Origin: a virus
Taxonomy: Duplodnaviria > Heunggongvirae > Uroviricota > Caudoviricetes
Reading direction: 5' to 3' (one strand)
IMG/VR virus record: IMGVR_UViG_3300028991_000014
Span: 1 to 10,615 of that record
DNA length: 10,615 nt
Both the position numbers and the translations under genes were made by a program. Under the pieces are notes generated by a model. That model was not told the DNA's origin and made no database searches. It was given only the letters and a program-made list of their open reading frames with translations. Positions within the stretch are counted from its first letter, which is position 1, and each line of letters starts with the position of its first letter. Positions 1-10,615 of the stretch are shown here, one piece after another.

Positions 1-135
1 TTCCTGGAAACGGGCGCGCTAATCGAAAAGGATCGGCATGGATTTGTCAGATGTGCGCTATCCGGTGAAATGCTGGCAGTAAATCCTGAACAGATAGATG
101 CATTGATAGAATTTCTGAAAGGGATCAGGGACTGA
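1..135 (+). CDS. hypothetical protein, C-terminal fragment (gene enters the window from the left)
   Basis: Frame 1 is open from base 1 to TGA at 133-135 (...EFLKGIRD*), followed directly by a hairpin/T-run terminator. The 44 aa give no recognisable family. Confidence 0.4.
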   Translation, partial: FLETGALIEKDRHGFVRCALSGEMLAVNPEQIDALIEFLKGIRD

Positions 136-145
136 GCACCCATAC

Positions 146-179
146 AGCCGGAGCAATCCGGCTTTTTGTAATTTTTTGT
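146..179 (+). terminator. intrinsic terminator downstream of the partial upstream ORF
   Basis: Stem AGCCGGA (146-152) / TCCGGCT (157-163) with GCAA loop, followed by TTTTGTAATTTTTTGT (164-179). Confidence 0.55.
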
Positions 180-291
180 AAATTATTTGTTCGTGGTCGT
201 TCCACGTTGTTCATTGACCGGATCGGCATATTTTACCCGCCCTGAATCATGATTATTCTCGCCAGTGGTGCCAGGACGCTGGGGCCACTTT

Positions 292-333
292 CCCGCCTGT
301 TAATGTGCTCACCAATATTCATTACCAGGCGGG
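292..333. promoter_or_regulatory. 14-bp inverted repeat with 14-bp spacer upstream of the capsid gene (operator or RNA-structure candidate)
   Basis: CCCGCCTGTTAATG (292-305) and CATTACCAGGCGGG (320-333) are reverse complements with one mismatch. No T-run follows on either strand, so it is not a simple terminator. Confidence 0.3.
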
Positions 334-389
334 AAAACGATCGGTGCGATTGCTGATTTCCTTATGAAAAACGGTTGAGTTTTTGCCGC

Positions 390-427
390 GTCCTGGAGTT
401 CCTTACTTAACCCCAGGACTTTTTTTT
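390..427 (+). terminator. terminator-like hairpin plus T8 abutting the capsid start codon (possible regulated terminator or attenuator)
   Basis: Stem GTCCTGG (390-396) / CCAGGAC (413-419) with an inner GTT/AAC extension, followed by TTTTTTTT (420-427) and then ATG at 428. Confidence 0.3.
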
Positions 428-1585
428 ATGCCGAGAATAATCGAATTACGCCAGCAGAAAACCGCCATTAAAAATCAGATGCGCGACATGCTGGAGAACG
501 CGGAAAAAGAAAACCGCAGCCTTAACGATGCAGAGGGCGCAAAATTTGACGAATTACGCGCTAAAGCTGAATCCCTCGATAAAGACATTTCCCGCCTTGA
601 AGCCATTGCAGACGAAGAGCGCAGCAAGCCAGGTAAAAGCAGCCAGACCACTGACCCGGCAGAACTCCGCAACTACATCCTGACAGGTGAAACCCGCGCA
701 TTAAGTACAGGTGTCCCCGCTGATGGTGGTTATACCGTTATCCCTGAACTGAACACCGAAATCATGCGAATGCTGGCGGATGAGTCCACCATGCGCCGCA
801 TCTGTACCGTGAAAAAAATCAGCAGCAACGAGTTTAAGCAGCTTGTTTCCGCTGGCGGTGCGGTCGTTAACCACGGTGAAGAGGGTAAGGCACGCGAACA
901 GACCAGCACCCCGCAGATTAACGAGGTGAGCATTAAGCTGTATCCGGTCTATGCGTACCCGCGCACCACACAGGAAATCGTGGATTTTTCCGATGTGGAC
1001 ATCCTTTCATGGCTGACGGGCGAGATTGGCGACACCTTCACGGAAACCGAAGAAAGTGATCTGGTTGTGGGCGACGGTGACAAAAAAGCAAAAGGTTTTT
1101 TATCCGTACCCCGTGCAGAGAAGAACGACAAAGAACGTGATTTCGGAACGTTGCAGGTTATCAAGCCCGTTGATGATCTTGCCTGGACATCTGCGGACCC
1201 GCTGATCGATCTGAAATTTGCATTACGTAAAAAATACCGCAAGAACGCGGTATGGGTGGTTAACTCCACGACGGCGGCAAAACTCCAGAAGGTGAAGAAT
1301 GCGAACGGGGATTATATATGGCGTGACCGTTTACAGGCGGGTGATCCTGACACATTGCTGGGCCTTCCGGTCGAATATCTGGAGTTTATGCCGGATAACG
1401 TTATTGCCCTGGGCGACTTTAAACGCGGTTACTACATCGTTGATCACGAAACAGGTGTTCGCACCAGACCGGACAACCTGACAGAACCAGGATTCATCAA
1501 AATTTTCACGCAAAAATATTTAGGCGGTGGCGTGGTGGATTCGAACGCGATCAAGATTCTGGAACTGCCACAGGACGACGATTAA
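428..1585 (+). CDS. phage major capsid protein, HK97 family
   Basis: 385-aa product with a charged, coiled-coil-like N-terminal segment (delta-domain-like) followed by a capsid-type body; sits at the head of a protease/portal gene set. The ORF track begins at TTG 383; ATG 428 is chosen as start, but there is no clear SD so the start is uncertain. Confidence 0.8.
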   Translation: MPRIIELRQQKTAIKNQMRDMLENAEKENRSLNDAEGAKFDELRAKAESLDKDISRLEAIADEERSKPGKSSQTTDPAELRNYILTGETRALSTGVPADGGYTVIPELNTEIMRMLADESTMRRICTVKKISSNEFKQLVSAGGAVVNHGEEGKAREQTSTPQINEVSIKLYPVYAYPRTTQEIVDFSDVDILSWLTGEIGDTFTETEESDLVVGDGDKKAKGFLSVPRAEKNDKERDFGTLQVIKPVDDLAWTSADPLIDLKFALRKKYRKNAVWVVNSTTAAKLQKVKNANGDYIWRDRLQAGDPDTLLGLPVEYLEFMPDNVIALGDFKRGYYIVDHETGVRTRPDNLTEPGFIKIFTQKYLGGGVVDSNAIKILELPQDDD

Positions 1586-1595
1586 CAGCATACAG

Positions 1596-1620
1596 AAGGG
1601 GCTAAAAAGCCCCTTTAGTG
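1596..1620 (+). terminator. hairpin between capsid and protease genes (possible partial terminator or attenuator)
   Basis: Stem AAGGGGC (1596-1602) / GCCCCTT (1609-1615) with TAAAAA loop, followed by an interrupted T-run (TAGTGTTTTATG). Confidence 0.3.
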
Positions 1621-1640
1621 TTTTATGGGTGAAAAAAATT

Positions 1641-2198
1641 ATGAAGAGTATGGAAATCCGGTCATCGGAAATCACCACCAGCGCCAGCAACACGCTTACA
1701 GGCTACGTTGTTCGCTGGGATAACCTTTCGGAACTGTTATGGGGGGAGTTTTACGAAAAATTCCAGCGGGGGGCGTTTACTGAGTGGCTTGCGGCGGGTA
1801 ATGACGTTCGCGGCCTGTATGAGCATGACCACAGCATGTTACTGGGGCGCACCCGTTCTGGCACGCTGAAACTGGAAGAGGACGACACAGGGTTACGCTT
1901 TGAACTTACCCCACCGGATACCAGCACAGGGCGTGACGTTATCGAACTGGTTAAACGTGGTGATATATCCGGCATGAGCTTTGGCTTTCGTTCCCGTAAG
2001 GATGTATGGGATACCACAACAGATCCATGCGTGCGCACCGTGCTGGTGGCGGAACTGTACGAAATTACCGTTACATCCGTACCGGCTTACCCCGATTCCG
2101 GCGTGGAGCTGGCCCGCCGTTCCCTGTATGAGCAGCACCCCGAAAAAATGCCGCGTGCGGATAATCGCCGCTGGTGGGCGGATTTAGCGGGGGTGTGA
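1641..2198 (+). CDS. phage prohead (head maturation) protease, HK97 family
   Basis: Translation from ATG 1641 (MKSMEIRSSEITT...) has the HK97 prohead protease layout (LYEHDHS..., KRGDISGMSFGF, VPAYPDS). The 5' part of track ORF 1527 overlaps the capsid gene and is rejected. A GGTGA lies 9 nt upstream. Confidence 0.85.
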   Translation: MKSMEIRSSEITTSASNTLTGYVVRWDNLSELLWGEFYEKFQRGAFTEWLAAGNDVRGLYEHDHSMLLGRTRSGTLKLEEDDTGLRFELTPPDTSTGRDVIELVKRGDISGMSFGFRSRKDVWDTTTDPCVRTVLVAELYEITVTSVPAYPDSGVELARRSLYEQHPEKMPRADNRRWWADLAGV

Positions 2199-2199
2199 T

Positions 2200-3411
2200 A
2201 TGTGGCCTTTCAGAAGAAAAAAAGAGCAGCGCAGCATGACGCTTGATGAATTTATGGCGCTGGCTGGCACATCGAACACGGGGGCGGGTGAGTACGTATC
2301 ATCGGGGACAGCGGAATCACTCCCCGCCGTCATGAACGCCGTCACGGTCATATCTGAGGCGGTGGCTACTATGCCATGCTACCTGTACCTGGTACGCAAT
2401 GAGAAGGGGAAGGAGGCCCGCGAGTGGCTTGATTCTCATCCGGTCGATCATATCCTCAACGAGCGCCCGAACGCATGGCAAACCCCCTACCAGTTTAAGC
2501 GAATGATGATCCGCCACTGCCTGTTAAACGGTAATGCTTACGCGGTGATTCAGTGGGGGCGTGATGGTTTTCCGGCGGCTTTACATCCTTACCCGCCGCA
2601 GTCGGTGAACGTGGAGCAGACAGGAGAACACAACTGGCGCTATTGCATCACTGACGCCTACACCGGAAACACCCGCAACTATTTACCGTGGGAAGTACTT
2701 CACCTTCGTTACTCCACGGATGACGGCTTTATGGGGCGCTCACCTGTAACCATCTGCCGCGAATCGCTGGGGCTTGGGCTGGCCCAACAACGCCACGGCG
2801 CGAGCGTGATGCGTGATGGCATGATGGCAGCAGGGGTTATCACGTCAGGCGAATGGCTGGACGGCGTGAAGGGCAAACAGGCATTAGCCGCACTGGAACG
2901 CTATAAAGGGGCCAAAAACGCCGGAAAAACGCCCATCCTTGAAGGGGGCATGAGTTACCAGCAGCTGGGCATGAGTAACCAGGACGCCGAATGGCTGGCC
3001 TCCCGTCGCTTCACCATTGAAGACATCGCCCGAATGTTCAACGTCTCGCCGATTTTTCTGCAGGAATACAGCAACAGCACCTACAGCAATTTCAGCGAGG
3101 CAAGCCGCGCATTTCTCACCATGACGATGCGCCCGTGGCTGGCGAACTTTGAGCAGCAGATAAAAAACGCCTTGCTGGTGGTCTCGCCTGTACCTGGTAT
3201 CCGGTATCAGGTGGAGTTTGACAGCGCGGACCTGTTACGGGCCACACCTGGCGAACGCTTTGCCACCTATGAGCGAGGCATCAAATCCGGTGTTATGTGC
3301 CCGAACGAAGCCCGCGAACGAGAAGGGTTGTCTCCGCGTGATGGTGGTGATGAGTTCAGCCAGGCATGGAAACAGGAAGTAAAAATCAGCGAGGGAGAAA
3401 AACCGGAATGA
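2200..3411 (+). CDS. phage portal protein, HK97 family
   Basis: 403-aa product with portal hallmarks (ESLPAVMNAVTVISEAVATMP, LLNGNAYAVIQ, GGMSYQQLGMSNQDAEWL, IEDIARMFNVSP). GGGGG SD at 2189-2193; start is 1 nt after the protease stop. Confidence 0.9.
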   Translation: MWPFRRKKEQRSMTLDEFMALAGTSNTGAGEYVSSGTAESLPAVMNAVTVISEAVATMPCYLYLVRNEKGKEAREWLDSHPVDHILNERPNAWQTPYQFKRMMIRHCLLNGNAYAVIQWGRDGFPAALHPYPPQSVNVEQTGEHNWRYCITDAYTGNTRNYLPWEVLHLRYSTDDGFMGRSPVTICRESLGLGLAQQRHGASVMRDGMMAAGVITSGEWLDGVKGKQALAALERYKGAKNAGKTPILEGGMSYQQLGMSNQDAEWLASRRFTIEDIARMFNVSPIFLQEYSNSTYSNFSEASRAFLTMTMRPWLANFEQQIKNALLVVSPVPGIRYQVEFDSADLLRATPGERFATYERGIKSGVMCPNEAREREGLSPRDGGDEFSQAWKQEVKISEGEKPE

Positions 3412-3746
3412 ACATAGGGCGACTGCGTGACAGGGTAACGATTCAGACCCTGAAACAGACCAGAGCCATGACGGGCGAAATACTCGAAACGTGGGAGGAC
3501 GGTCACACACTCTGGGCAAGCGTGAACATGGTCAGCAGCAAGGAGGCCATTTCATCGGGTGCAGAGCTGGCGATTGGTACCGTAAGGATCTGGATACGGT
3601 ACCGGAAGGACATTAACGCCACCAGCCGGATAAAGGTCAATACGGGGCCGCTGGCGGGGCGTGTACTGAATATCATCGGGCAGCCGCTGCCGGATGCCGC
3701 CAGGACACGCCTTGAAATTCTTTGTCGTGAGGGCGCGGAAAAATGA
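3408..3746 (+). CDS. phage head-tail adaptor / head closure protein
   Basis: 112-aa product from ATG 3408 with motifs RVTIQ, TLWASV, RIWIRYRKDI, RLEILCRE typical of this family. Start overlaps the portal stop (ATGA); GAGGGAG SD at 3391-3397. Confidence 0.8.
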   Translation: MNIGRLRDRVTIQTLKQTRAMTGEILETWEDGHTLWASVNMVSSKEAISSGAELAIGTVRIWIRYRKDINATSRIKVNTGPLAGRVLNIIGQPLPDAARTRLEILCREGAEK

Positions 3747-4039
3747 CAGAAGAACTTATCACCCTGGAAGAAGTGAAACTCCATTGCCGCATCGATGGCG
3801 ACGAGGAAGACCAGTTAATCAGCGGATACATTGCCGCATCGCTTGAGGCGTGCCAGATACACATAGGCAGGCGCTTTGATGACGGGCTGGAGTTCACGCC
3901 AGCCATAAAGATTGGCTGCATGATGTTTATCGCTCACCTGTATGAGAATCGCCAGATTGTCGCGGATAACGCAAAAACACACGTACCCATGACGATTGGC
4001 GCACTCTGGACGGCTTACCGTGATGTGGGGGTGTACTGA
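3743..4039 (+). CDS. phage gp6-like head-tail connector protein
   Basis: 98-aa product MTEELITLEEVKLHCRIDGDEEDQLISGYIAAS... matches the gp6-like connector pattern. ATGA overlap with the adaptor stop. Confidence 0.8.
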   Translation: MTEELITLEEVKLHCRIDGDEEDQLISGYIAASLEACQIHIGRRFDDGLEFTPAIKIGCMMFIAHLYENRQIVADNAKTHVPMTIGALWTAYRDVGVY

Positions 4040-4479
4040 TGCCGTGGCAACCATTAAGACGATGTACAGAACCAGGCTGCAACAGGCGCGTGAAGTCCGG
4101 CAAGTGTGAGGAGCACAGACGCAGCGCACGCCAGCAGCAGGACAGCCGGAGAGGCAGCAGCAGGGAGCGAGGGTATACGAGGCAGTGGGAGAAATACCGC
4201 GCCATGTATCTGAGTAAAAACCCGTTATGTGCGCATTGCCTGGAAAAAGGAATATACAAGCCCGCCGTGGTGGTGGATCACATTATCCCAATCGATGGCG
4301 GTAATGATGTTCTCTTCTGGCCTGAGTGGAATCATCAGCCATTGTGCCAGGCGTGTCATAACCAGAAAACGAAATGGCTTGATCCGTCCACAAAAAACAA
4401 GCGTGCTGCGGGTGGATTCCGTGAGGAGGAAGAACGGGCCGCTAACCGCAATAACTGGATGTATGGCGCTGATGAATGA
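4039..4479 (+). CDS. HNH endonuclease (terminase-associated, cos-cleavage accessory type)
   Basis: HNH motif CAHC...VVDHIIPIDGGNDV...NHQPLCQACHNQKT; ATGA overlap with the connector stop; position immediately upstream of terS/terL is typical of HNH-dependent cos packaging. Confidence 0.85.
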   Translation: MPWQPLRRCTEPGCNRRVKSGKCEEHRRSARQQQDSRRGSSRERGYTRQWEKYRAMYLSKNPLCAHCLEKGIYKPAVVVDHIIPIDGGNDVLFWPEWNHQPLCQACHNQKTKWLDPSTKNKRAAGGFREEEERAANRNNWMYGADE

Positions 4480-4645
4480 GCGGGAACAAAACCGCCTTAT
4501 CCGTGGACTTATAAGGCAGCGTGACGCATGGAAGGCACAGGAAACAGGGCATAAAGATAAAGCATCAGGACGCGCAGAACGCATCACAGCGACGCGATTA
4601 AACGACCGTGACCGCGAGGTTATGGAATGTTTCCGCAATCGCTGA
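4472..4645 (+). CDS. hypothetical small basic protein (57 aa)
   Basis: ATG 4472 overlaps the HNH stop by 8 nt; translation MNEREQNRLIRGLIRQRDAWKAQ... is Arg/Lys-rich. It is the non-overlapping distal part of track ORF 4229-4645. No family recognised. Confidence 0.35.
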   Translation: MNEREQNRLIRGLIRQRDAWKAQETGHKDKASGRAERITATRLNDRDREVMECFRNR

Positions 4646-4768
4646 TGAGGCAGCCGGACGGGGTGGGGGGAGTTTTCAGGACGAACCCGACCCCGCCCAG
4701 AACCGACCGCCTCCCCAAATTTTTATGCACGGTAATTTTTTGAAAAATAATCTGGCGAAAAAATAAGC
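4646..4768. other. candidate cos (cohesive-end / terminase recognition) region
   Basis: Non-coding gap between the HNH region and terS with a G-run GGACGGGGTGGGGGGAG (4656-4672) followed by C-runs CCCGACCCCGCCC (4686-4698) and CGCCTCCCC (4708-4716). Position matches where HNH-dependent cos phages carry cos. Confidence 0.4.
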
Positions 4769-5125
4769 ATGGCAAGACCACCGAAAGCCCCCGCCTACCT
4801 GGATGATATCGCCGTGAAGCAGTGGCGGGAAAAATCGCGGCAGCTTGCGGAACGGGGAGACCTGACCCCTGCCGACTGGAGTAATCTGGAACTGTATTGC
4901 GTCAATTACTCGATATACCGGAAAGCCGTCGCAGACCTTGCGGCGCGCGGGTTCAGCATTGTTAACAGTCAGGGCGGAGAGAGCAGAAACCCCGCATTAA
5001 GCGCGAAATCCGACGCGGAAAGAGTGATGATAAAAATGGCCTCTTTGCTCGGTTTTGACCCGATAAGCCGCCGTAAAAATCCACCGGAAACAGAAGAAGA
5101 GGACGAGCTTGACCGCCTGGAATAA
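4769..5125 (+). CDS. phage terminase small subunit, P27 family
   Basis: 118-aa product MARPPKAPAYLDD...LELYCVNYSIYRKAV...GGESRNPAL...LLGFDPISRRK fits the P27-family TerS pattern; immediately upstream of and overlapping the large terminase gene. Confidence 0.85.
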   Translation: MARPPKAPAYLDDIAVKQWREKSRQLAERGDLTPADWSNLELYCVNYSIYRKAVADLAARGFSIVNSQGGESRNPALSAKSDAERVMIKMASLLGFDPISRRKNPPETEEEDELDRLE

Positions 5126-6770
5126 GTACGCAGAAGACGTAAAAACGGGCAAGATTCCGGCCTGTAAACGGCTGAAACAGGCCGTTAAACGATACTTTTC
5201 GGACCTTGAAAACCCCCTTTACATGTTCGATCGTGAGGTTGTTGAGCGGTTTATTGCCTTTTCCAGGGTGTGCCCGCACGTAAAAGGGCCGATGCGTGGA
5301 AGACCCATTGAGCTGGAACCGTGGCAGCAGTTTGCCTTTGCGTGCATCCTCGGCTTTAAGGTTAAGGCCACCGGAAGGCGCAAATACACGAGCGCCTTTA
5401 TCGAAGTGCCGCGCAAAAATGCGAAATCCACGACAGCCGCGATTCTGGCTAACTGGTTTCTGATTATGGAGAACGGGCAGCAGGATATTTACACCGCAGC
5501 GGTGAGCCGCGACCAGGCGCGGATCGTTTTTGATGATGCGCGTCAGATGTGCCTTTTATCCCGACCGTTACGCAAGAGAGTGAATATTCAGGCCCACAAG
5601 GTGATGCACCCGAAAAGCAACAGCCTGTTAAAGCCGCTGGCAGCAAAAGCGGCAACCATCGAGGGCACAAACCCAAGCCTTTCCATCGTGGACGAATACC
5701 ACCTACACCCCGATAACGGCGTTTATTCCGCGCTTGAGCTGGGGATGGGCGCACGTCCCGAAGGGCTGTTATTTGCCATTACCACATCGGGCAGTAACGT
5801 CGTTTCAGCCTGTAAACAGCACTATGATTATTGCTGCCAGATCCTGGACGGCGAAGAGGTCAACGATTCAATTTTTGTGCTGATTTACGAGCTGGACGAC
5901 GAAAACGAGGTTGATGATCCGGCGATGTGGATAAAGGCTAACCCTAACATCGATGTTTCCGTGGATCGTGAAAAACTGGCCTCAACCATCCAGAAAGCGC
6001 GGGGTATTCCGTCGCAATGGGTGGAGATGATGACAAAGCGATTTAATATCTGGTGCCAGGGGGCTACCCCGTGGATGGGTAACGGCGCATGGGCTGAGTG
6101 TGCCGGAACGTTCACGGAGGAAGATTTACACGGGCAGGAGTGTTACGCGGGGCTGGACTTATCATCAACCAGCGATATTTCCAGCGTGTGCTATGCCTTT
6201 CCGGTTGGTAAAACCATTATGCTGATTTCCCGTCATTATCTGCCGGAGTTCCAGCTACAGAACCCCGCCAATAAAAACCGCGCTGTCTATCGCCAGTGGG
6301 CTAAAGCGGGCTGGATACGCACAACGCCAGGTGACTGCATTGATTACGACCGGATCAGAGATGACATCATGCAGGATGCGGAGAAATTTAATATCAGGCT
6401 GGTGGGCTTTGATACGTGGAACGCCACGCACCTGAGAACGCAATTACAGGGGGCTGGTTTTGAGGTGGAGCCGTTCCCGCAAACCTACCTCAGATTCAGT
6501 CCGGCGGCGAAATCGTTCGAAGTTTTTGTTAACCGCAGGGTGATTGTGCATCGTGGCGATCCGGTGTTGTCCTGGTCGATGAGTAACGTCGTGATGCAGA
6601 GTGACGCGAACGCCAATATCAAGCCGAACAAGAAAAAATCACCGAACAAGATAGACCCGAGCGTAGCGGCGCTGATGGCGTTTGGTACATTCCAGGCAGA
6701 GCATGAGGATTTTGCTTTTGATATAAGCGACAGCCACCGCCAGAAACTGGAAGAATTTAGCGGGGTGTAA
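5109..6770 (+). CDS. phage terminase large subunit
   Basis: 553-aa product with an ATPase Walker A-like segment (EVPRKNAKSTTAA), DEYH Walker B-like motif and a C-terminal nuclease-type domain. Apparent TTG start at 5109 with AGAGGA SD 5 nt upstream; overlaps the terS 3' end. The first in-frame ATG would remove the conserved N-terminus. Confidence 0.9.
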   Translation: MTAWNKYAEDVKTGKIPACKRLKQAVKRYFSDLENPLYMFDREVVERFIAFSRVCPHVKGPMRGRPIELEPWQQFAFACILGFKVKATGRRKYTSAFIEVPRKNAKSTTAAILANWFLIMENGQQDIYTAAVSRDQARIVFDDARQMCLLSRPLRKRVNIQAHKVMHPKSNSLLKPLAAKAATIEGTNPSLSIVDEYHLHPDNGVYSALELGMGARPEGLLFAITTSGSNVVSACKQHYDYCCQILDGEEVNDSIFVLIYELDDENEVDDPAMWIKANPNIDVSVDREKLASTIQKARGIPSQWVEMMTKRFNIWCQGATPWMGNGAWAECAGTFTEEDLHGQECYAGLDLSSTSDISSVCYAFPVGKTIMLISRHYLPEFQLQNPANKNRAVYRQWAKAGWIRTTPGDCIDYDRIRDDIMQDAEKFNIRLVGFDTWNATHLRTQLQGAGFEVEPFPQTYLRFSPAAKSFEVFVNRRVIVHRGDPVLSWSMSNVVMQSDANANIKPNKKKSPNKIDPSVAALMAFGTFQAEHEDFAFDISDSHRQKLEEFSGV

Positions 6771-6783
6771 TGAGGTCAGCAGC

Positions 6784-7065
6784 ATGACAGAAGCCGAAAT
6801 ACTGCGATTAATCCGCCGCGTCTCTGGAATCAGCCAGCAGCATGACGAACAGGCCACGCAGCCGGACAGCGTGACCGCCGAAAATTATGCGCGTGTTGTT
6901 GCTGAGGTGATGCGCCGTGATGGTATCCAGCTTAATGATGTGGATATGCGCAACATACGGATCCGCGTTCTTGAAATGCTGGCCTACCGTCGCCGCGTGC
7001 AGACGTACAGGGAAAAAGCAAAAATTACGTACCACTGGAAGAAGCCGGAGCGGTTACGGCGGTAA
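6784..7065 (+). CDS. hypothetical protein (93 aa), last gene of the element
   Basis: ORF with GAGG SD about 8 nt upstream of ATG 6784; basic C-terminus (KKPERLRR); no recognisable family. Its stop abuts the first copy of a 28-bp direct repeat. Confidence 0.45.
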   Translation: MTEAEILRLIRRVSGISQQHDEQATQPDSVTAENYARVVAEVMRRDGIQLNDVDMRNIRIRVLEMLAYRRRVQTYREKAKITYHWKKPERLRR

Positions 7066-7070
7066 CTGGT

Positions 7071-7098
7071 TGAACTTAAAGCAAAGCGCAAAATTGCG
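7071..7098. repeat. 28-bp direct repeat, copy 1 (TGAACTTAAAGCAAAGCGCAAAATTGCG)
   Basis: Identical 28-mer recurs at 7290-7317; flanking bases are also partly similar (CGGTTAC...CTGGTTG). Confidence 0.8.
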
Positions 7099-7111
7099 TT
7101 GGCTGGTGGGT

Positions 7112-7131
7112 GAGTTGCAGATCTGCAACTC
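7112..7131. repeat. perfect 20-bp palindrome GAGTTGCAGATCTGCAACTC
   Basis: Exact self-complementarity read directly from the sequence. It lies between the two direct-repeat copies, together with further hairpins at 7203-7225 (8-bp stem CGATACCC/GGGTATCG) and 7263-7276 (GGCGGAATTCCGCC). Confidence 0.8.
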
Positions 7132-7289
7132 GACCATGAAATTACGGAAAATACCCGTAGTTTGGGTAGTAAGAGTAACACCCAGATTTTGGGGCTTACT
7201 CGCGATACCCAAATAAAGGGTATCGGTGGAAGAAATATCGTTTCTCATATGTGAGTACCGAGGGCGGAATTCCGCCTTCGGTTACTCGC

Positions 7290-7317
7290 TGAACTTAAAG
7301 CAAAGCGCAAAATTGCG
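7290..7317. repeat. 28-bp direct repeat, copy 2
   Basis: Identical to 7071-7098. Confidence 0.8.
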
Positions 7318-7644
7318 CTGATTACTGGTTGGAATTGTTCCAGAGTGCAAATTTACACTATGGCCTAACCCGTTGATATTTCCGGCAACCTCAATTTGAG
7401 GAGGCAGGGAACATCCCCTAAATCCGGTGATGTATTCGGCCCCTTTAACGGGTATTACGATAATCATAACACCTACCGAACAGGTAAAGGCCACCAGCCT
7501 GATTAACGTTTAACCGGAAAAAAAGCCAGGTATCCAATCTCGATATGTGGATCCCCATATCGACAGCAATGCCCCCTTAAAATTATCCGCCTTTATATTT
7601 CTTGTGCCTATTTGTTCCACGTTGTTTCATACAGTGCGCCGAAC

Positions 7645-7668
7645 GGTGTAGTCACTGGTGTAGTCATT
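7645..7668. repeat. tandem 12-bp direct repeats GGTGTAGTCACT / GGTGTAGTCATT near the element end
   Basis: Two adjacent near-identical units about 75 bp from the junction with tqsA. Candidate recombinase arm-type or regulator binding sites (inference). Confidence 0.5.
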
Positions 7669-7712
7669 TTGCGATTTTTGGCACTTTTTGTGGTGCAAAT
7701 TATTTAATTAAA

Positions 7713-7877
7713 TCAATGTGTTAAGTGAAATAAGTTATATATAACAGCAATAAATAATGCGAGAATAAACGGCACGATGATCTCGGCGGCAAAACGGATA
7801 CCGCAGAGAATAATGACCAGCATTCCCAACATAATGACGATTTTTAGGCCATTGAGCGTGATGATCGGCTTTGCCAT
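7713..7877 (-). pseudogene. tqsA: tqsA (ydgG) 5' fragment truncated by the element insertion
   Basis: Minus-strand translation from ATG 7877 gives [46 protein letters not shown], which matches the TqsA N-terminus as recalled. The frame then diverges into AT-rich element DNA (YNLFHLTH, stop at 7713-7715). Divergent from mdtJ as in E. coli. Confidence 0.7.
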
Positions 7878-8288
7878 GCTTGTCCCCGTTTTTTCTTCCT
7901 TTGCTAATAATAATGTCTTTTTCGCTCCGTCATCATAACGAAAATCAAACCGCTCAGGTAAAGAAGTGAAAATATTTTGAGTTAATTCTTAAGCTATGAT
8001 ACAAATCAGGCGTGTTCAACTACCGAGGACAATTATCATCCGCGATGACGAGAAGCAACACTGCGGATAATTGTAATATTATGGACAATTTGTTCAGGAC
8101 GTTATTTTCAACATTTACCCATCTTCGTACCTCATCCACTATCTTGCTCGTAGGTGAGCAGCACTGGCGCAACGCGCTTTAGTCCTTTCTTCTGCCTAAG
8201 CTTGCCCTATGCGCGGGGCTTGACCACTTTACTTTGGTTTCGCTGAATTAAGCGAAAATTAAAATAATTCTCTTGCAGGAGAAGGACA

Positions 8289-8654
8289 ATGTATATTTAT
8301 TGGATTTTATTAGGCCTGGCTATTGCTACAGAAATTACCGGTACGCTGTCAATGAAATGGGCGAGCGTCAGTGAGGGAAATGGCGGCTTTATTTTAATGC
8401 TGGTGATGATTTCTCTGTCGTATATATTTCTCTCTTTCGCCGTTAAAAAGATCGCCTTAGGCGTAGCTTATGCGCTGTGGGAAGGTATCGGTATTTTATT
8501 TATTACCTTGTTTAGCGTTTTGTTATTCGACGAAAGTTTATCGCTGATGAAAATTGCCGGGTTAACCACCCTGGTCGCCGGGATTGTGTTGATCAAATCA
8601 GGTACCCGTAAAGCGCGTAAACCTGAACTGGAGGTGAACCATGGCGCAGTTTGA
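8289..8654 (+). CDS. mdtJ: spermidine export protein MdtJ (SMR family)
   Basis: 121-aa four-TM SMR-type protein matching E. coli MdtJ as recalled; GGAGAAGGA SD upstream; overlaps mdtI start. Confidence 0.95.
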
Positions 8655-8970
8655 ATGGGTTCACGCCGCCTGGCTGGCATTGGCAATCGTGCTGGAAATC
8701 GTTGCTAACGTCTTTTTGAAATTTTCTGACGGCTTTCGTCGCAAAATATTTGGCTTGCTCTCCCTGGCGGCGGTGCTGGCTGCCTTTAGTGCGCTTTCTC
8801 AGGCCGTAAAAGGGATCGACTTGTCTGTCGCTTATGCATTGTGGGGCGGGTTTGGTATTGCCGCCACGTTAGCCGCAGGTTGGATCTTGTTTGGTCAACG
8901 GTTAAATCGTAAAGGCTGGATTGGCCTGGTCTTGCTGTTGGCTGGAATGATCATGGTGAAACTTGCCTGA
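8641..8970 (+). CDS. mdtI: spermidine export protein MdtI (SMR family)
   Basis: 109-aa SMR-type protein ([32 protein letters not shown]...); GGAGGTG SD; 14-nt overlap with mdtJ, consistent with the mdtJI operon. Confidence 0.95.
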
Positions 8971-8976
8971 TGAAGA

Positions 8977-9017
8977 CGCTGCCCGCGCTGTCGGGCAGCG
9001 TTTGAACATTATTTTTG
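8977..9017 (+). terminator. hairpin terminator between convergent mdtI and ydgD
   Basis: Stem CGCTGCCCG (8977-8985) / CGGGCAGCG (8992-9000) with CGCTGT loop, followed by TTTGAACATTATTTTTG. Confidence 0.5.
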
Positions 9018-9830
9018 CGACAGTTGATCCAGCTTGTCGCGAAAACCGGTAACAGAAATGGCCCGGTTATCGGCGCGCCAGCGATCTTTCGCGGCAGGAG
9101 CCGAACTTTGCACCCCAATTAATTGCCAGCCGTCATCGGTATGCAACATCAGAGGCGAACCGCTGTCACCCGGCAAGGTATCGCACTGATGTGACATCAC
9201 CGACGTTTGCGCCCAGCCAGTCACTTCACAGTTTTGATGACTGTATAACGTATCGAGATGATCTTCAGGATATCCCGCCTGAGTCACTTTACGACCAGCC
9301 GATTTTAATGCGGCAGTAAGCGCGGCTTTATCTCCCTCAAATAACGGCAACGGTGTAATGCCAGAAGGGGGATTACGCAGCACAATCAAGCCGAAGTCCC
9401 ATGGTGCAGCTGCGGGAGGAACAATCCAACCATCCCCATCTGCTTTTAACCGCTTTCCCAGTGTCGGATCAACGCGGCCTTCTATGTCGTGGATCTCATA
9501 GCGCCAAAGACCTTTATTTGACACAAAACGCAGCGCCACTGCTTTATCGGCTTTACCCTTTGGAGGTGTCAATAAACAGTGTCCTGCCGTTAATGCCAGA
9601 TTGGGTGCAATCAGCGTCGCCGTACATAAATTGCCGCTGGCCGTTTCCAGTTGCCCAACCGCATCCCACGGTGATTGGGTCGTGTCATTCACTGGCACAC
9701 GATCATCATGACCAAAAAACAGGGTGCTGACCTCATCGTTTGCCGATTTGGCAACGTCTGGTTTATCTGCAAACACAAAAGCAGACGTCAAACTAATTGC
9801 ACCCAACACTACAGCAATGGTTGTACGCAT
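9009..9830 (-). CDS. ydgD: secreted trypsin-like serine protease YdgD (peptidase S1 family)
   Basis: 273-aa product with signal-peptide-like N-terminus and catalytic motifs TAGHCLL (His) and GDSGSPL (Ser); position between mdtI and asr as in E. coli. Confidence 0.9.
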
Positions 9831-9929
9831 ATCACACTCTGGTGGGTAATTATGATTATTAAAAGCAAACCCTCATAAATACTATAGACGGGACGGGATG
9901 AAAGTGGGAGTAAAATCAGATAACTACAG

Positions 9930-10013
9930 TCAGGAAAGATAAAAACGGGCGGCAATCAGTGCGCATAAAATAAGGATGATAAGAATGAACTCAAAGCGAT
10001 AACGGCCCACCAT
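9930..10013 (-). CDS. ydgU: small membrane protein YdgU (27 aa)
   Basis: Minus-strand ATG at 10013 preceded by GGAGGG SD; translation MVGRYRFEFILIILILCALIAARFYLS is hydrophobic and matches the short ydgU ORF known between asr and ydgD. Not in the supplied ORF track (too short). Confidence 0.65.
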   Translation of the reverse strand: MVGRYRFEFILIILILCALIAARFYLS

Positions 10014-10030
10014 ACTACCCTCCGCTAAAG

Positions 10031-10087
10031 GCGGTGCTAAACGTTACCCGCTTAGCACCGTAATTTTCAGGCGCGAGGGGGCGCGCC
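10031..10087 (-). terminator. hairpins in the asr 3' region (candidate asr terminator)
   Basis: Two GC-rich stems: GGTGCTAA (10033-10040) / TTAGCACC (10052-10059), and GGCGCG (10070-10075) / CGCGCC (10082-10087). The U-tract on the minus-strand transcript is weak, so the call is tentative. Confidence 0.3.
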
Positions 10088-10105
10088 AGCATTACTGTTG
10101 AAAAC

Positions 10106-10414
10106 TTACGCTGCGGGTTGTGCAGCAGGTTTTGCCGGTTGCTGATGGCTGTGTTTCCCGGCGTGTTTCTTCGCTGCCTGCGCTTTTTGTTCAGGGGCTT
10201 TCTGTTCAGCTTTCGTATTTTTATGATGCTTTTTAGCCGCCTGCGCTTTCTGGGCAGGTGCTGCTTTATGCTGTTTTTTATGATGTGTCGTTTTCGCCGG
10301 CGCTGCTTTGGTGGTCGTCGCAGTCGGAGCAGGTGTGGTCGCAGTCTCTGCAGCAAAGGCGGCAGAAGACAGACCCATAGCAGCGGCAACAACCAGAGCT
10401 AATACTTTTTTCAT
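10106..10414 (-). CDS. asr: acid shock protein Asr
   Basis: 102-aa product [23 protein letters not shown]... with signal peptide and Lys/Ala/His-rich repeats, matching E. coli Asr as recalled. Start chosen at ATG 10414 (GAGGG SD 7 nt upstream) rather than the track's 10441. Confidence 0.9.
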
Positions 10415-10615
10415 TGTCATACCCTCAATTTGTTTTTTCATTTAACCCCACTGCGGGGCCGTTGAAATAACTATATCCCTGGGAATGGCAGACTTCCGTG
10501 AGTGGTTGGTTTCAGCGTGTAACGATATGTACAAACGCTGGGTAATGACTCCAACTTATTGATAGTGTTTTATGTTCAGATAATGCCCGATGACTTTGTC
10601 ATGCAGCTCCACCGA
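10415..10615 (-). promoter_or_regulatory. asr upstream regulatory region
   Basis: Non-coding DNA 5' of asr on the minus strand. asr is known to be acid-induced via two-component regulators, but no specific binding sites were mapped here. Confidence 0.35.

What the first reader, a model, noticed from the sequence alone, without database searches (positions are those of the whole stretch)
7713..7877. Element is inserted inside the 5' coding region of tqsA, leaving a 46-codon stump
Reading the minus strand from ATG 7877 gives the N-terminus of the AI-2 exporter TqsA as recalled, through ...FIAVI. From about 7740 the frame runs into AT-rich foreign DNA and stops after 8 more codons. The rest of tqsA should lie at the far end of the element, outside the window. 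Insertion within a protein-coding 5' region, rather than a tRNA or a gene 3' end, is less usual and should inactivate tqsA unless the element supplies a replacement N-terminus at its other junction.
Basis: partly seen in the sequence, partly recalled or inferred. Interest (0 to 1): 0.6.

Follow-up and report, generated by a model that had tools for sequence, protein, structure and literature searches.

The report
Phage satellite inserted in tqsA gene
A 15-kb phage satellite (a capsid-forming PICI closely related to the E. coli O157 prototype) sits inside the AI-2 exporter gene tqsA and splits it after codon 46; this is real, but both the satellite family and this insertion site are already published.

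Summary
The minus-strand ORF 7877..7713 is the first 46 codons of E. coli tqsA, followed by 8 foreign codons and a stop. Its first 137 nt are identical to native tqsA.

Window 1-7740 is the right half of a roughly 15-kb capsid-forming phage-inducible chromosomal island (cf-PICI). It carries capsid, protease, portal, head closure, connector, HNH, TerS and TerL genes and no tail or lysis genes. It is 95.5% identical to Sakai Sp7 (CP-933C/OI-51), which I infer to be the EcCIEDL933 prototype.

The crossover core is 9 bp, ATAACAGCA, at 7741-7749. Two integrase arm-type repeats lie at 7645-7666.

Six related genomes hold the whole element (14.9-15.3 kb). In each, the other 298 codons of tqsA lie beyond the integrase end, and TGA TAA stops sit in the tqsA frame just before the core. 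The element therefore supplies no replacement N-terminus, and the AI-2E transporter domain is split.

About 4.5-4.7% of 5,423 complete E. coli genomes carry this insertion; 5,167 have the empty site.

The tqsA site is already reported (Bobay 2013; Flockhart 2012; Mageeney 2020, as a "regulated gene integrity" candidate). The window's own left junction was not seen. Interest is low.

The parts
1..135 (+). 3' end of a small hypothetical gene of the element (74 aa in relatives)
   Evidence: Corresponds to L004 9911-10135. The partial product is identical to that of L011.
428..1585 (+). Major capsid protein (385 aa from the ATG at 428; the mechanical ORF starts at TTG 383)
   Evidence: Pfam Phage_capsid E=2.3e-61. 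PHROG 10, major head protein. 98.4% identical to Sakai Sp7 ECs_1590.
1641..2198 (+). HK97-type prohead serine protease
   Evidence: Pfam Peptidase_S78 E=5.8e-48. 96.8% identical to Sp7.
2200..3411 (+). Portal protein
   Evidence: Pfam Phage_portal E=3e-90. The exact protein also occurs in islands at other att sites.
3408..3746 (+). Head closure (head completion) protein
   Evidence: Pfam Phage_HCP E=1e-22.
3743..4039 (+). Head-tail connector protein
   Evidence: Pfam Phage_connect_1 E=3.2e-12.
4039..4479 (+). HNH endonuclease of the packaging module
   Evidence: Pfam HNH E=1.3e-07.
4463..4645 (+). Small conserved hypothetical gene (60 aa)
   Evidence: PHROG 3173 E=9.6e-35. Annotated in relatives.
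4769..5125 (+). Small terminase subunit (P27 family)
   Evidence: Pfam Terminase_4 E=1.3e-23. 100% identical to Sp7.
5109..6770 (+). Large terminase subunit (TTG start)
   Evidence: Pfam TerL_ATPase and TerL_nuclease. 98.0% identical to Sp7.
6784..7065 (+). Last ORF of the element, 93 aa, function unknown
   Evidence: PHROG 1561 E=1.4e-56. Also the last gene of a classical PICI at the clpS site.
7066..7740 (.). Non-coding right arm of the element. It includes a hairpin-rich repeat region (7060-7340) and the attP P-arm. No tail or lysis genes.
   Evidence: Only short ORFs without family hits. Repeats and hairpins. Fold z = -8.9.
7645..7666 (+). Two tandem integrase arm-type repeats, GGTGTAGTCA, 12-bp period, 96 and 84 bp from the core
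   Evidence: the repeat finder family D7. The same pair recurs on the other arm of the reconstructed attP at +137/+149. The repeats co-vary with the integrase N-terminal domain in the sister element.
7741..7749 (.). attR crossover core ATAACAGCA (TGCTGTTAT in the tqsA sense; last base of codon 43 to second base of codon 46)
   Evidence: Shared by attB, attL and attR.
7713..7877 (-). tqsA stump ORF: 46 native codons (7740-7877), 8 element-derived codons and TGA
   Evidence: PGAP marks the equivalent as a pseudogene 'missing C-terminus'.
7878..10615 (.). Unaltered chromosomal flank: tqsA upstream region, ydgV (8012-8182 +), mdtJ (8289-8654 +), mdtI (8641-8970 +), ydgD (9009-9830 -), asr (10106-10441 -)
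   Evidence: Collinear with annotated E. coli genomes.

Best explanation
The window holds the right-hand 7.74 kb of a roughly 15-kb capsid-forming phage-inducible chromosomal island (cf-PICI) of the EcCIEDL933 / CP-933C / Sp7 family, plus its attR junction with the E. coli chromosome.

Shown here. The element encodes its own capsid, protease, portal, connectors, HNH and terminase, and no tail or lysis genes. The junction is a 9-bp core (ATAACAGCA) inside tqsA codons 43-46. Two arm-type repeats lie about 90 bp inside the element.

Shown in related genomes. The other end of the element carries a P4-type tyrosine integrase with an arm-binding domain, AlpA, a D5-type primase, SSB and PerC. It also carries the same core, followed by the remaining 298 tqsA codons. 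In-frame TGA TAA stops immediately precede that core.

Inferred. The integrase binds the arm and core sites and recombines attP with attB in tqsA. This separates the promoter and the first 46 codons (TM1 and most of TM2, by my reading of the hydrophobic segments) from the rest of the AI-2E transporter domain, so TqsA is not made while the island is integrated. Excision restores tqsA exactly, because the core is identical in attL and attR. By analogy with EcCIEDL933, excision would be AlpA-dependent and triggered by a helper phage. The island would then package itself in its own small capsids and borrow helper tails.
For: - Stump and breakpoint.
- Packaging genes. No larger ORFs between TerL and attR.
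- Similarity to the prototype: 95.5% nt identity over 7,073 bp, with intact proteins 88-100% identical to Sakai Sp7. Sp7 is CP-933C/OI-51 of EDL933 (PMC3378721). The cf-PICI prototype EcCIEDL933 is described as a 15.4-kb element with this gene set, shown experimentally to make its own small capsids and to need only helper tails (bioRxiv 10.1101/2022.09.08.507074).
- Whole elements in tqsA in six genomes, 14,944-15,303 bp, with int, AlpA, primase, SSB and PerC.
- Core and att anatomy.
- No N-terminal replacement.
- Domain split. The TqsA structure 7nb6 confirms the identity of the full-length protein.
- Empty site in 5,167 of 5,423 genomes; window-type junction in 243.
Against: The window stops inside the element. 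Its own integrase, attL and the tqsA remainder were never seen, and the exact source contig was not recovered. Loss of TqsA function is inferred from sequence only. Re-initiation at GTG51 or ATG54 after the TGA TAA stops cannot be excluded, although it would give a protein lacking TM1 and most of TM2. Mobility and helper dependence are extrapolated from a 95%-identical relative integrated at a different site. The equation of EcCIEDL933 with CP-933C/Sp7 is my inference from size, gene content and strain; no paper I read states it.
Confidence: 0.9

Rival explanations
1. The integration preserves the gene: the element brings a substitute 5' end, so a functional chimeric TqsA is made from attL. 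Many islands that target coding sequences work this way.
For: At attL an open frame of 74 codons from the element lies in the same frame as tqsA. PGAP annotates a 60-aa hypothetical protein there.
Against: That frame ends in tandem TGA TAA stops one codon before the core in all six genomes examined. It has no similarity to the TqsA N-terminus and no Pfam hit. It lies antisense over the integrase start. PGAP calls the remainder a pseudogene lacking its N-terminus. TIGER's domain-disruption test scored these islands as 'disrupted without restoration'.
Confidence: 0.03
2. The element is an ordinary or decayed prophage, not a satellite. On this view, tail and lysis genes were lost or lie in the unseen half.
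For: Earlier literature called the family 'cryptic/degraded prophage' (PMC3378721). Bobay 2013 counted the tqsA insertion as a prophage. The packaging genes have phage homologues.
Against: Complete relatives are only 14.9-15.3 kb. They have a fixed int-alpA-primase-SSB-PerC plus head/packaging gene set and no tail or lysis genes. Every packaging ORF in the window is intact. The family was shown experimentally to be a helper-dependent satellite. The non-coding right end has no match among 50,697 phage records.
Confidence: 0.05
3. The insertion is an adaptive switch ('regulated gene integrity'). On this view, integration turns AI-2 export off and regulated excision turns it back on in a defined physiological situation, rather than tqsA being merely a tolerated landing site.
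For: The site is specific and recurs in diverse strains with differing elements. Excision would restore the gene exactly. Mageeney et al. 2020 list tqsA among 19 new candidates.
Against: There are no data on excision without loss or on phenotype. The 89%-identical sister integrase targets the stretch between roxA and phoQ without interrupting either annotated gene, so gene disruption is not a family trait. tqsA also carries an unrelated internal deletion in one genome, which suggests it is dispensable.
Confidence: 0.12
4. The truncation arose from a non-site-specific event (an IS or transposon hit, a deletion or an assembly chimera) that happens to abut an island.
For: Only one junction is visible in the window.
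Against: The identical breakpoint and 9-bp core occur at both ends of the element in six independent assemblies and in 243 complete genomes. Arm-type integrase sites flank the core. No transposase or terminal inverted repeats are present.
Confidence: 0.01

Closest known systems
EcCIEDL933 (inferred to be CP-933C / O-island 51 of EDL933 and Sp7 of Sakai), the prototype capsid-forming PICI
   Same: The order and content of the packaging module are the same. Nucleotide identity is 95.5% over 7,073 bp, and the proteins are 88-100% identical. In relatives of the window element the left half has the same int-alpA-DUF4222(RgdR)-primase-SSB-PerC(PchE) layout. Size is about 15 kb.
   Different: The prototype lies between roxA (ycfD) and phoQ and interrupts neither gene. 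Its core is GGACATATTT and its arm repeats are GGTGTAGTTA. Its integrase is 89% identical, with about half of the differences in the N-terminal arm-binding domain. The non-coding stretch between the last ORF and attR also differs.
tqsA-targeting integrative elements Eco282.16.tqsA, Eco33.11.tqsA and Eco557.15.tqsA (TIGER; Mageeney et al. 2020, PMC7192596)
   Same: These are E. coli islands of 11-16 kb in tqsA that disrupt the UPF0118/AI-2E domain without restoring it. They are very probably the same element family and site.
   Different: That study did not classify them as PICI or cf-PICI. I could not compare their sequences directly.
Element of E. coli ED1a lying between ydgD and ydgG (tqsA) (Flockhart et al. 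2012, PMC3378721); EcCIED1a in the PICI literature
   Same: It occupies the same chromosomal location and is related to CP-933C. Its int, alpA and rep genes are described as identical to those of EcCIEDL933.
   Different: EcCIED1a is described as a classical PICI without a full capsid module. The ED1a record was not in the collection, so its core could not be checked.
Classical cases of genes split by integrated elements and restored on excision (comK, sigK, mlrA, hlb)
   Same: A site-specific integrase core lies inside a conserved coding region, the gene is not restored at attL or attR, and excision is exact.
   Different: For tqsA there is no experimental evidence of regulated excision or of a phenotype. 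Here the element is a phage satellite, not a prophage or skin-type element.

Membership tests
Capsid-forming PICI (cf-PICI) | Packaging module like EcCIEDL933: capsid, prohead protease, portal, head-tail connectors, HNH, TerS, TerL | tested here: met
   All eight genes are present, intact and in the same order. They are 88-100% identical to the Sp7 proteins.
Capsid-forming PICI (cf-PICI) | No phage tail or lysis genes | tested here: met
   In the window, nothing but short ORFs without family hits lies between TerL/ORF93 and attR. Complete relatives have no such genes. The window's own left half was not seen.
Capsid-forming PICI (cf-PICI) | Integrase at one end, alpA regulator, replication (primase) gene; size about 10-15 kb | tested here: inconclusive
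   This region is outside the window. The feature is met in six related genomes that match window 1-7760 (or the part of it aligned) at 94-99% identity. They have Arm-DNA-bind_3 + Phage_integrase, Phage_AlpA and a D5_N/Pox_D5 primase and sizes of 14,944-15,303 bp.
Capsid-forming PICI (cf-PICI) | Own attachment site that is not used by prophages | tested here: inconclusive
   256 genomes lack the intact site, and 243 of them have the window-type junction. The one further genome I inspected has an internal deletion in tqsA. I did not survey all 13 remaining genomes.
Capsid-forming PICI (cf-PICI) | Induction by a helper phage, formation of small capsids, dependence on helper tails | not testable with these tools
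   Shown experimentally only for EcCIEDL933 with helpers HK106 and HK446.
AI-2E transporter TqsA (the interrupted gene) | Sequence identity with E. coli tqsA and the AI-2E_transport domain | tested here: met
   Nt 1-137 are identical to annotated tqsA. The full-length protein matches PDB 7nb6 'AI-2 transport protein TqsA' over residues 1-344 and Pfam PF01594 over residues 14-328. The stump covers only profile positions 2-36.
Regulated gene integrity (gene switched by integration and excision) | Conserved domain disrupted and not restored by the element | tested here: met
   The domain is cut at residue 46. TGA TAA stops precede the core at attL in six genomes.
Regulated gene integrity (gene switched by integration and excision) | Same site used in multiple independent integrations by a tight integrase clade | tested here: met
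   The core is identical in elements that differ in their accessory and regulatory genes and in their non-coding regions, across diverse strains. The tqsA-type integrases differ at 12 of 409 residues.
Regulated gene integrity (gene switched by integration and excision) | Excision under a defined condition restores the gene in surviving cells, with a phenotype | not testable with these tools
   No data. Exact restoration is only predicted, from the identical core.

The most novel reading that the evidence does not exclude
The cf-PICI acts as a reversible switch on quorum-signal export. While integrated it abolishes TqsA, which should change AI-2 retention and biofilm behaviour. AlpA-driven excision on contact with a helper phage rebuilds tqsA in cells that survive. 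The tqsA promoter left at attR may also express the 54-aa two-helix stump or read antisense into the packaging genes. The switch idea was already raised as a candidate by Mageeney et al. 2020, so only its demonstration, and the link to a phage satellite, would be new.
Probability: 0.1. Interest if true: 0.5.

Novelty: already known. Interest (0 to 1): 0.15.

Why it matters
This is mainly an annotation point. The 54-codon ORF is a pseudogene fragment, the strain is predicted to lack the TqsA AI-2 exporter, and the adjacent 7.7 kb is half of a phage satellite, not a defective prophage.

About one complete E. coli genome in twenty carries this insertion. The 40 closest matches to the element half of the window include serotype-labelled O26, O103, O55:H7 and O157:H7 strains. 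Studies of AI-2 signalling or biofilm in such strains should therefore take it into account.

The pair of 89%-identical integrases is a convenient natural system for mapping integrase site specificity. One targets tqsA and the other the roxA-phoQ site, with different cores and co-varying arm repeats. None of this changes current understanding.

Tried and rejected
- The source contig, with the window's own attL, was not recovered. An exact-protein look-up with the portal returned six contigs, the best 99.4% identical. The window's TerL is unique among all loci fetched, and no look-up was made with any other window protein, TerL included. TerL lies too far right for a 10-kb flank to reach attL, and the capsid, the leftmost complete gene, has a sequence shared by five of the fetched loci.
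- The integrase scan of one-genome-per-species contigs found only a Shigella flexneri locus of the roxA-phoQ type. It gave no information on tqsA targeting outside E. coli.
- The ED1a record (NC_011745.1) is not in the collection. The classical PICI at this site could not be compared.
- The first EDL933 fetch failed on the range limit. Sakai Sp7 was used instead.
- Rfam found nothing in the window at gathering thresholds, and only two chance-level hits at E about 0.5 in 6900-8300.
- The non-coding right end has no match in the phage collection.
- The consensus promoter/terminator scan around the junction was at or below shuffle expectation for promoters, and gave no clear terminator directly after the stump.
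- The covariation test on the hairpin cluster was uninformative because the pairs are almost invariant.
- A full-text search for tqsA together with 'phage-inducible chromosomal island' found no paper. The link between the cf-PICI literature and the tqsA-site literature is therefore my own synthesis.
- Genome CFSAN004176, which lacks the intact site, turned out to have an unrelated internal tqsA deletion, not another element.

Full report
**Observation**

The minus-strand ORF 7713..7877 (54 aa, ATG start) exists as described. It translates to [46 protein letters not shown] followed by YNLFHLTH and a stop. I compared it base by base with the annotated tqsA of E. coli R1 (L003). Nucleotides 1-137 are identical and the first mismatch is nt 138, which is window 7740. 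Codon 46 is ATA instead of ATT, which is synonymous.

Megablast of 7400-8300 against 5,426 complete E. coli genomes found the right-hand part, from window 7741 onward, in 5,423 genomes. There it is annotated as tqsA, ydgV and mdtJ.

**What lies to the left**

Window 1-7740 encodes the following genes in one direction:
- a major capsid protein
- an S78 prohead protease
- a portal protein
- a head-closure protein
- a gp6-like connector
- an HNH endonuclease
- a small conserved ORF
- a P27-family small terminase
- a large terminase
- a 93-aa ORF of unknown function

Between that last ORF and the junction lie 675 bp holding only short ORFs without family hits. No tail or lysis gene is present.

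The whole stretch is 95.5% identical over 7,073 bp to prophage-like element Sp7 of E. coli O157:H7 Sakai. Every protein is intact and 88-100% identical. Flockhart et al. 2012 state that Sp7 is the Sakai counterpart of CP-933C/O-island 51 of EDL933 and that it lies between ycfD (roxA) and phoQ (PMC3378721). The cf-PICI preprint describes EcCIEDL933 as a 15.4-kb element of EDL933. It has int, alpA and rep genes plus exactly this capsid and packaging set and no tail genes. Experiments there showed that it builds its own small capsids and takes only tails from helper phages HK106 and HK446 (10.1101/2022.09.08.507074). I infer that EcCIEDL933 is CP-933C/Sp7 from strain, size and gene content. No paper I read says so explicitly.

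**The complete element in relatives**

The closest complete genomes (NZ_CP144926.1, 98.9% over window 1-7760; NZ_CP144930.1, 98.0%) show the following order: pntB, then tqsA lacking its N-terminus, tyrosine integrase, AlpA-type regulator, small genes, a DUF4222 protein, a D5-type primase, SSB, PerC, and then the packaging module. After that come the tqsA stump, ydgV and mdtJ.

The same arrangement occurs in PCN033 and in three further assemblies found through the exact portal protein. These elements differ in their accessory genes. Element lengths, measured core to core, are 14,944 to 15,303 bp.

**The att site**

I aligned the empty site, attR and attL.
- The perfect common core is 9 bp: ATAACAGCA on the + strand (window 7741-7749), or TGCTGTTAT in the tqsA sense. 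It runs from the last base of codon 43 to the second base of codon 46.
- Weaker similarity surrounds it (attB TGCTGTTATtctTAAC against attR TGCTGTTATataTAAC).
- In the reconstructed attP, two tandem copies of GGTGTAGTCA with a 12-bp period lie at -96/-84 and again at +137/+149 relative to the core, all in the same orientation.
- The first pair is window 7645-7666.

The integrase has an Arm-DNA-bind_3 domain as well as the catalytic Phage_integrase domain. I read these repeats as arm-type binding sites; that is an inference.

**Sister element**

A cf-PICI in O157:H7 strain F3113, and Sakai Sp7, have an integrase 89% identical to the tqsA-type enzyme. They sit between roxA and phoQ, interrupting neither gene, with a different core (GGACATATTT) and arm repeats GGTGTAGTTA. 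Between the two integrase types, 20-21 of the 37-46 differences fall in the first 95 residues, which is the arm-binding domain. The co-variation of protein and repeats supports the arm-site reading. It also shows that disrupting a gene is a property of this particular site choice and not of the family.

**Does the element repair tqsA?**

In all six genomes, attL read in the tqsA sense is ...CACTAAATGATAAAATGCTGTTATTCTTAACCCGCTGGTG... In the native frame this reads ACT AAA TGA TAA AAT GCT GTT ATT. Two stop codons therefore sit one codon before the core.
- An element-derived open frame of 74 codons lies in the same frame, and PGAP annotates 60 aa of it. It ends at those stops, has no family hit and lies antisense over the integrase start.
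- The first in-frame start candidates after the stops are GTG at codon 51 and ATG at codon 54. Neither is preceded by a Shine-Dalgarno-like sequence.
- The Pfam AI-2E_transport domain spans residues 14-328 of TqsA. The stump covers profile positions 2-36 and the remainder covers 32-326.
- By my reading of the hydrophobic segments, the cut falls within the second transmembrane helix.

This rests on relatives, because the window's own left end could not be retrieved.

**Frequency**

A 401-bp probe centred on the empty site is intact in 5,167 of 5,423 genomes. The window-type junction is present in 243 genomes. About 4.5-4.7% of complete E. coli genomes therefore carry this insertion. The 40 closest matches to window 1-7760 include serotype-labelled O26, O103, O55:H7 and O157:H7 strains, mostly from humans and cattle. 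The one further genome without an intact site that I inspected has an internal deletion in tqsA and no island.

**What is already known**

- Bobay et al. 2013 list tqsA among core genes disrupted by prophage integration (PMC3603311).
- Flockhart et al. 2012 note a CP-933C-related element between ydgD and ydgG (tqsA) in strain ED1a.
- Mageeney et al. 2020 mapped E. coli islands of 11-16 kb in tqsA (Eco282.16.tqsA, Eco33.11.tqsA, Eco557.15.tqsA). They scored them as domain-disrupting without restoration and named tqsA among 19 new candidates for 'regulated gene integrity' (PMC7192596).
- The cf-PICI preprint says that family members use six attB sites in E. coli, four of them shared with classical PICIs. 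Its supplementary table is not held, so I could not confirm that tqsA is one of the six.
- No paper in the library combines 'tqsA' with 'phage-inducible chromosomal island'. The explicit statement that the tqsA-splitting island is a cf-PICI is my synthesis. It adds a label, not a new phenomenon.

**Mechanism and rivals**

The best-supported account is site-specific integration of a cf-PICI by a P4-type tyrosine integrase at a 9-bp core in tqsA. This leads to loss of TqsA while the island is integrated and exact restoration on excision (confidence 0.9).

Three alternatives are contradicted by the data above: gene-preserving integration, a conventional or decayed prophage, and a non-specific insertion or deletion. 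An adaptive switch function remains possible but has no direct support. I put it at about 0.1.

**Verdict**

The element family and the insertion site are both already described, so novelty is 'already known' and interest is low (0.15).

Noticed in passing
window 7060-7340: A hairpin-rich non-coding block lies after the last ORF of the element. Two 53-nt direct repeats (7060-7112 and 7279-7331, 83% identical) each contain the palindrome AAAGCGCAAAATTGCGC and flank several near-perfect hairpins. The RNA fold z-score is -8.9 on the + strand and -8.45 on the - strand. There is no Rfam family and no match in phage records. The ~45-nt repeat unit recurs one to three times in every related island and bounds cassettes that differ between islands. 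The 200-nt hairpin core also follows the same 93-aa ORF in a classical PICI at the clpS site and matches in about 1,100 E. coli genomes. Covariation was uninformative because the pairs are nearly invariant. Function unknown.
   Followed up: partly
window 7645-7666; L004 2902-2925 and 17727-17750; L005 3086-3109 and 17745-17768: The integrase arm repeats co-vary with the integrase. tqsA-type islands have GGTGTAGTCA, and roxA-phoQ-type islands have GGTGTAGTTA. The two integrases are 89% identical, and about half of their differences lie in the 95-residue arm-binding domain. This is a natural pair for studying site specificity.
   Followed up: partly
L011-L016 (loci found through the exact portal protein of window 2200-3411): The identical 403-aa portal protein occurs in cf-PICIs at three or more chromosomal sites. 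These are tqsA (409-aa integrase), next to cspD/clpS (412-aa integrase), and a third site next to genes with hydroxyethylthiazole-kinase and phosphomethylpyrimidine-kinase domains (406-aa integrase). Packaging and integration modules are evidently exchanged between islands.
   Followed up: partly
window 7420-7600: This stretch is polymorphic for insertions and deletions among otherwise 98-99% identical islands. The window lacks segments of about 46 and 24 nt that are present in NZ_CP144926.1. It contains a 24-nt palindrome, TCGATATGTGGA/TCCCCATATCGA, at 7540-7563.
   Followed up: no
window 7282-7494, minus strand: A 70-aa ORF with a hydrophobic N-terminus (MAFTCSVGVMIIVIPV...) has no PHROG hit. 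It runs into the terminator-like hairpin of the second repeat unit. It may be spurious or a small membrane peptide.
   Followed up: no
window 10106-10441, minus strand: The asr gene (acid-shock repetitive basic protein) is 111 aa here and in L011, but 102 aa in several other genomes. This is length variation in a repeat protein of the chromosomal flank.
   Followed up: no
L004 6134-6433 and 9513-9785; L009 6305-6604 and 9773-10045 (outside the window): The unseen left half of such islands carries a 99-aa DUF4222 protein at the position of ECs1581 (RgdR) and a PerC-family protein at the position of PchE. Both are reported regulators of the LEE type III secretion system in O157. The island may therefore affect virulence-gene expression as well as tqsA.
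   Followed up: no
L008 (NZ_CP014583.1) 19723-20119: Strain CFSAN004176 has an independent internal deletion in tqsA with no island. This suggests the gene is dispensable in some lineages.
   Followed up: no
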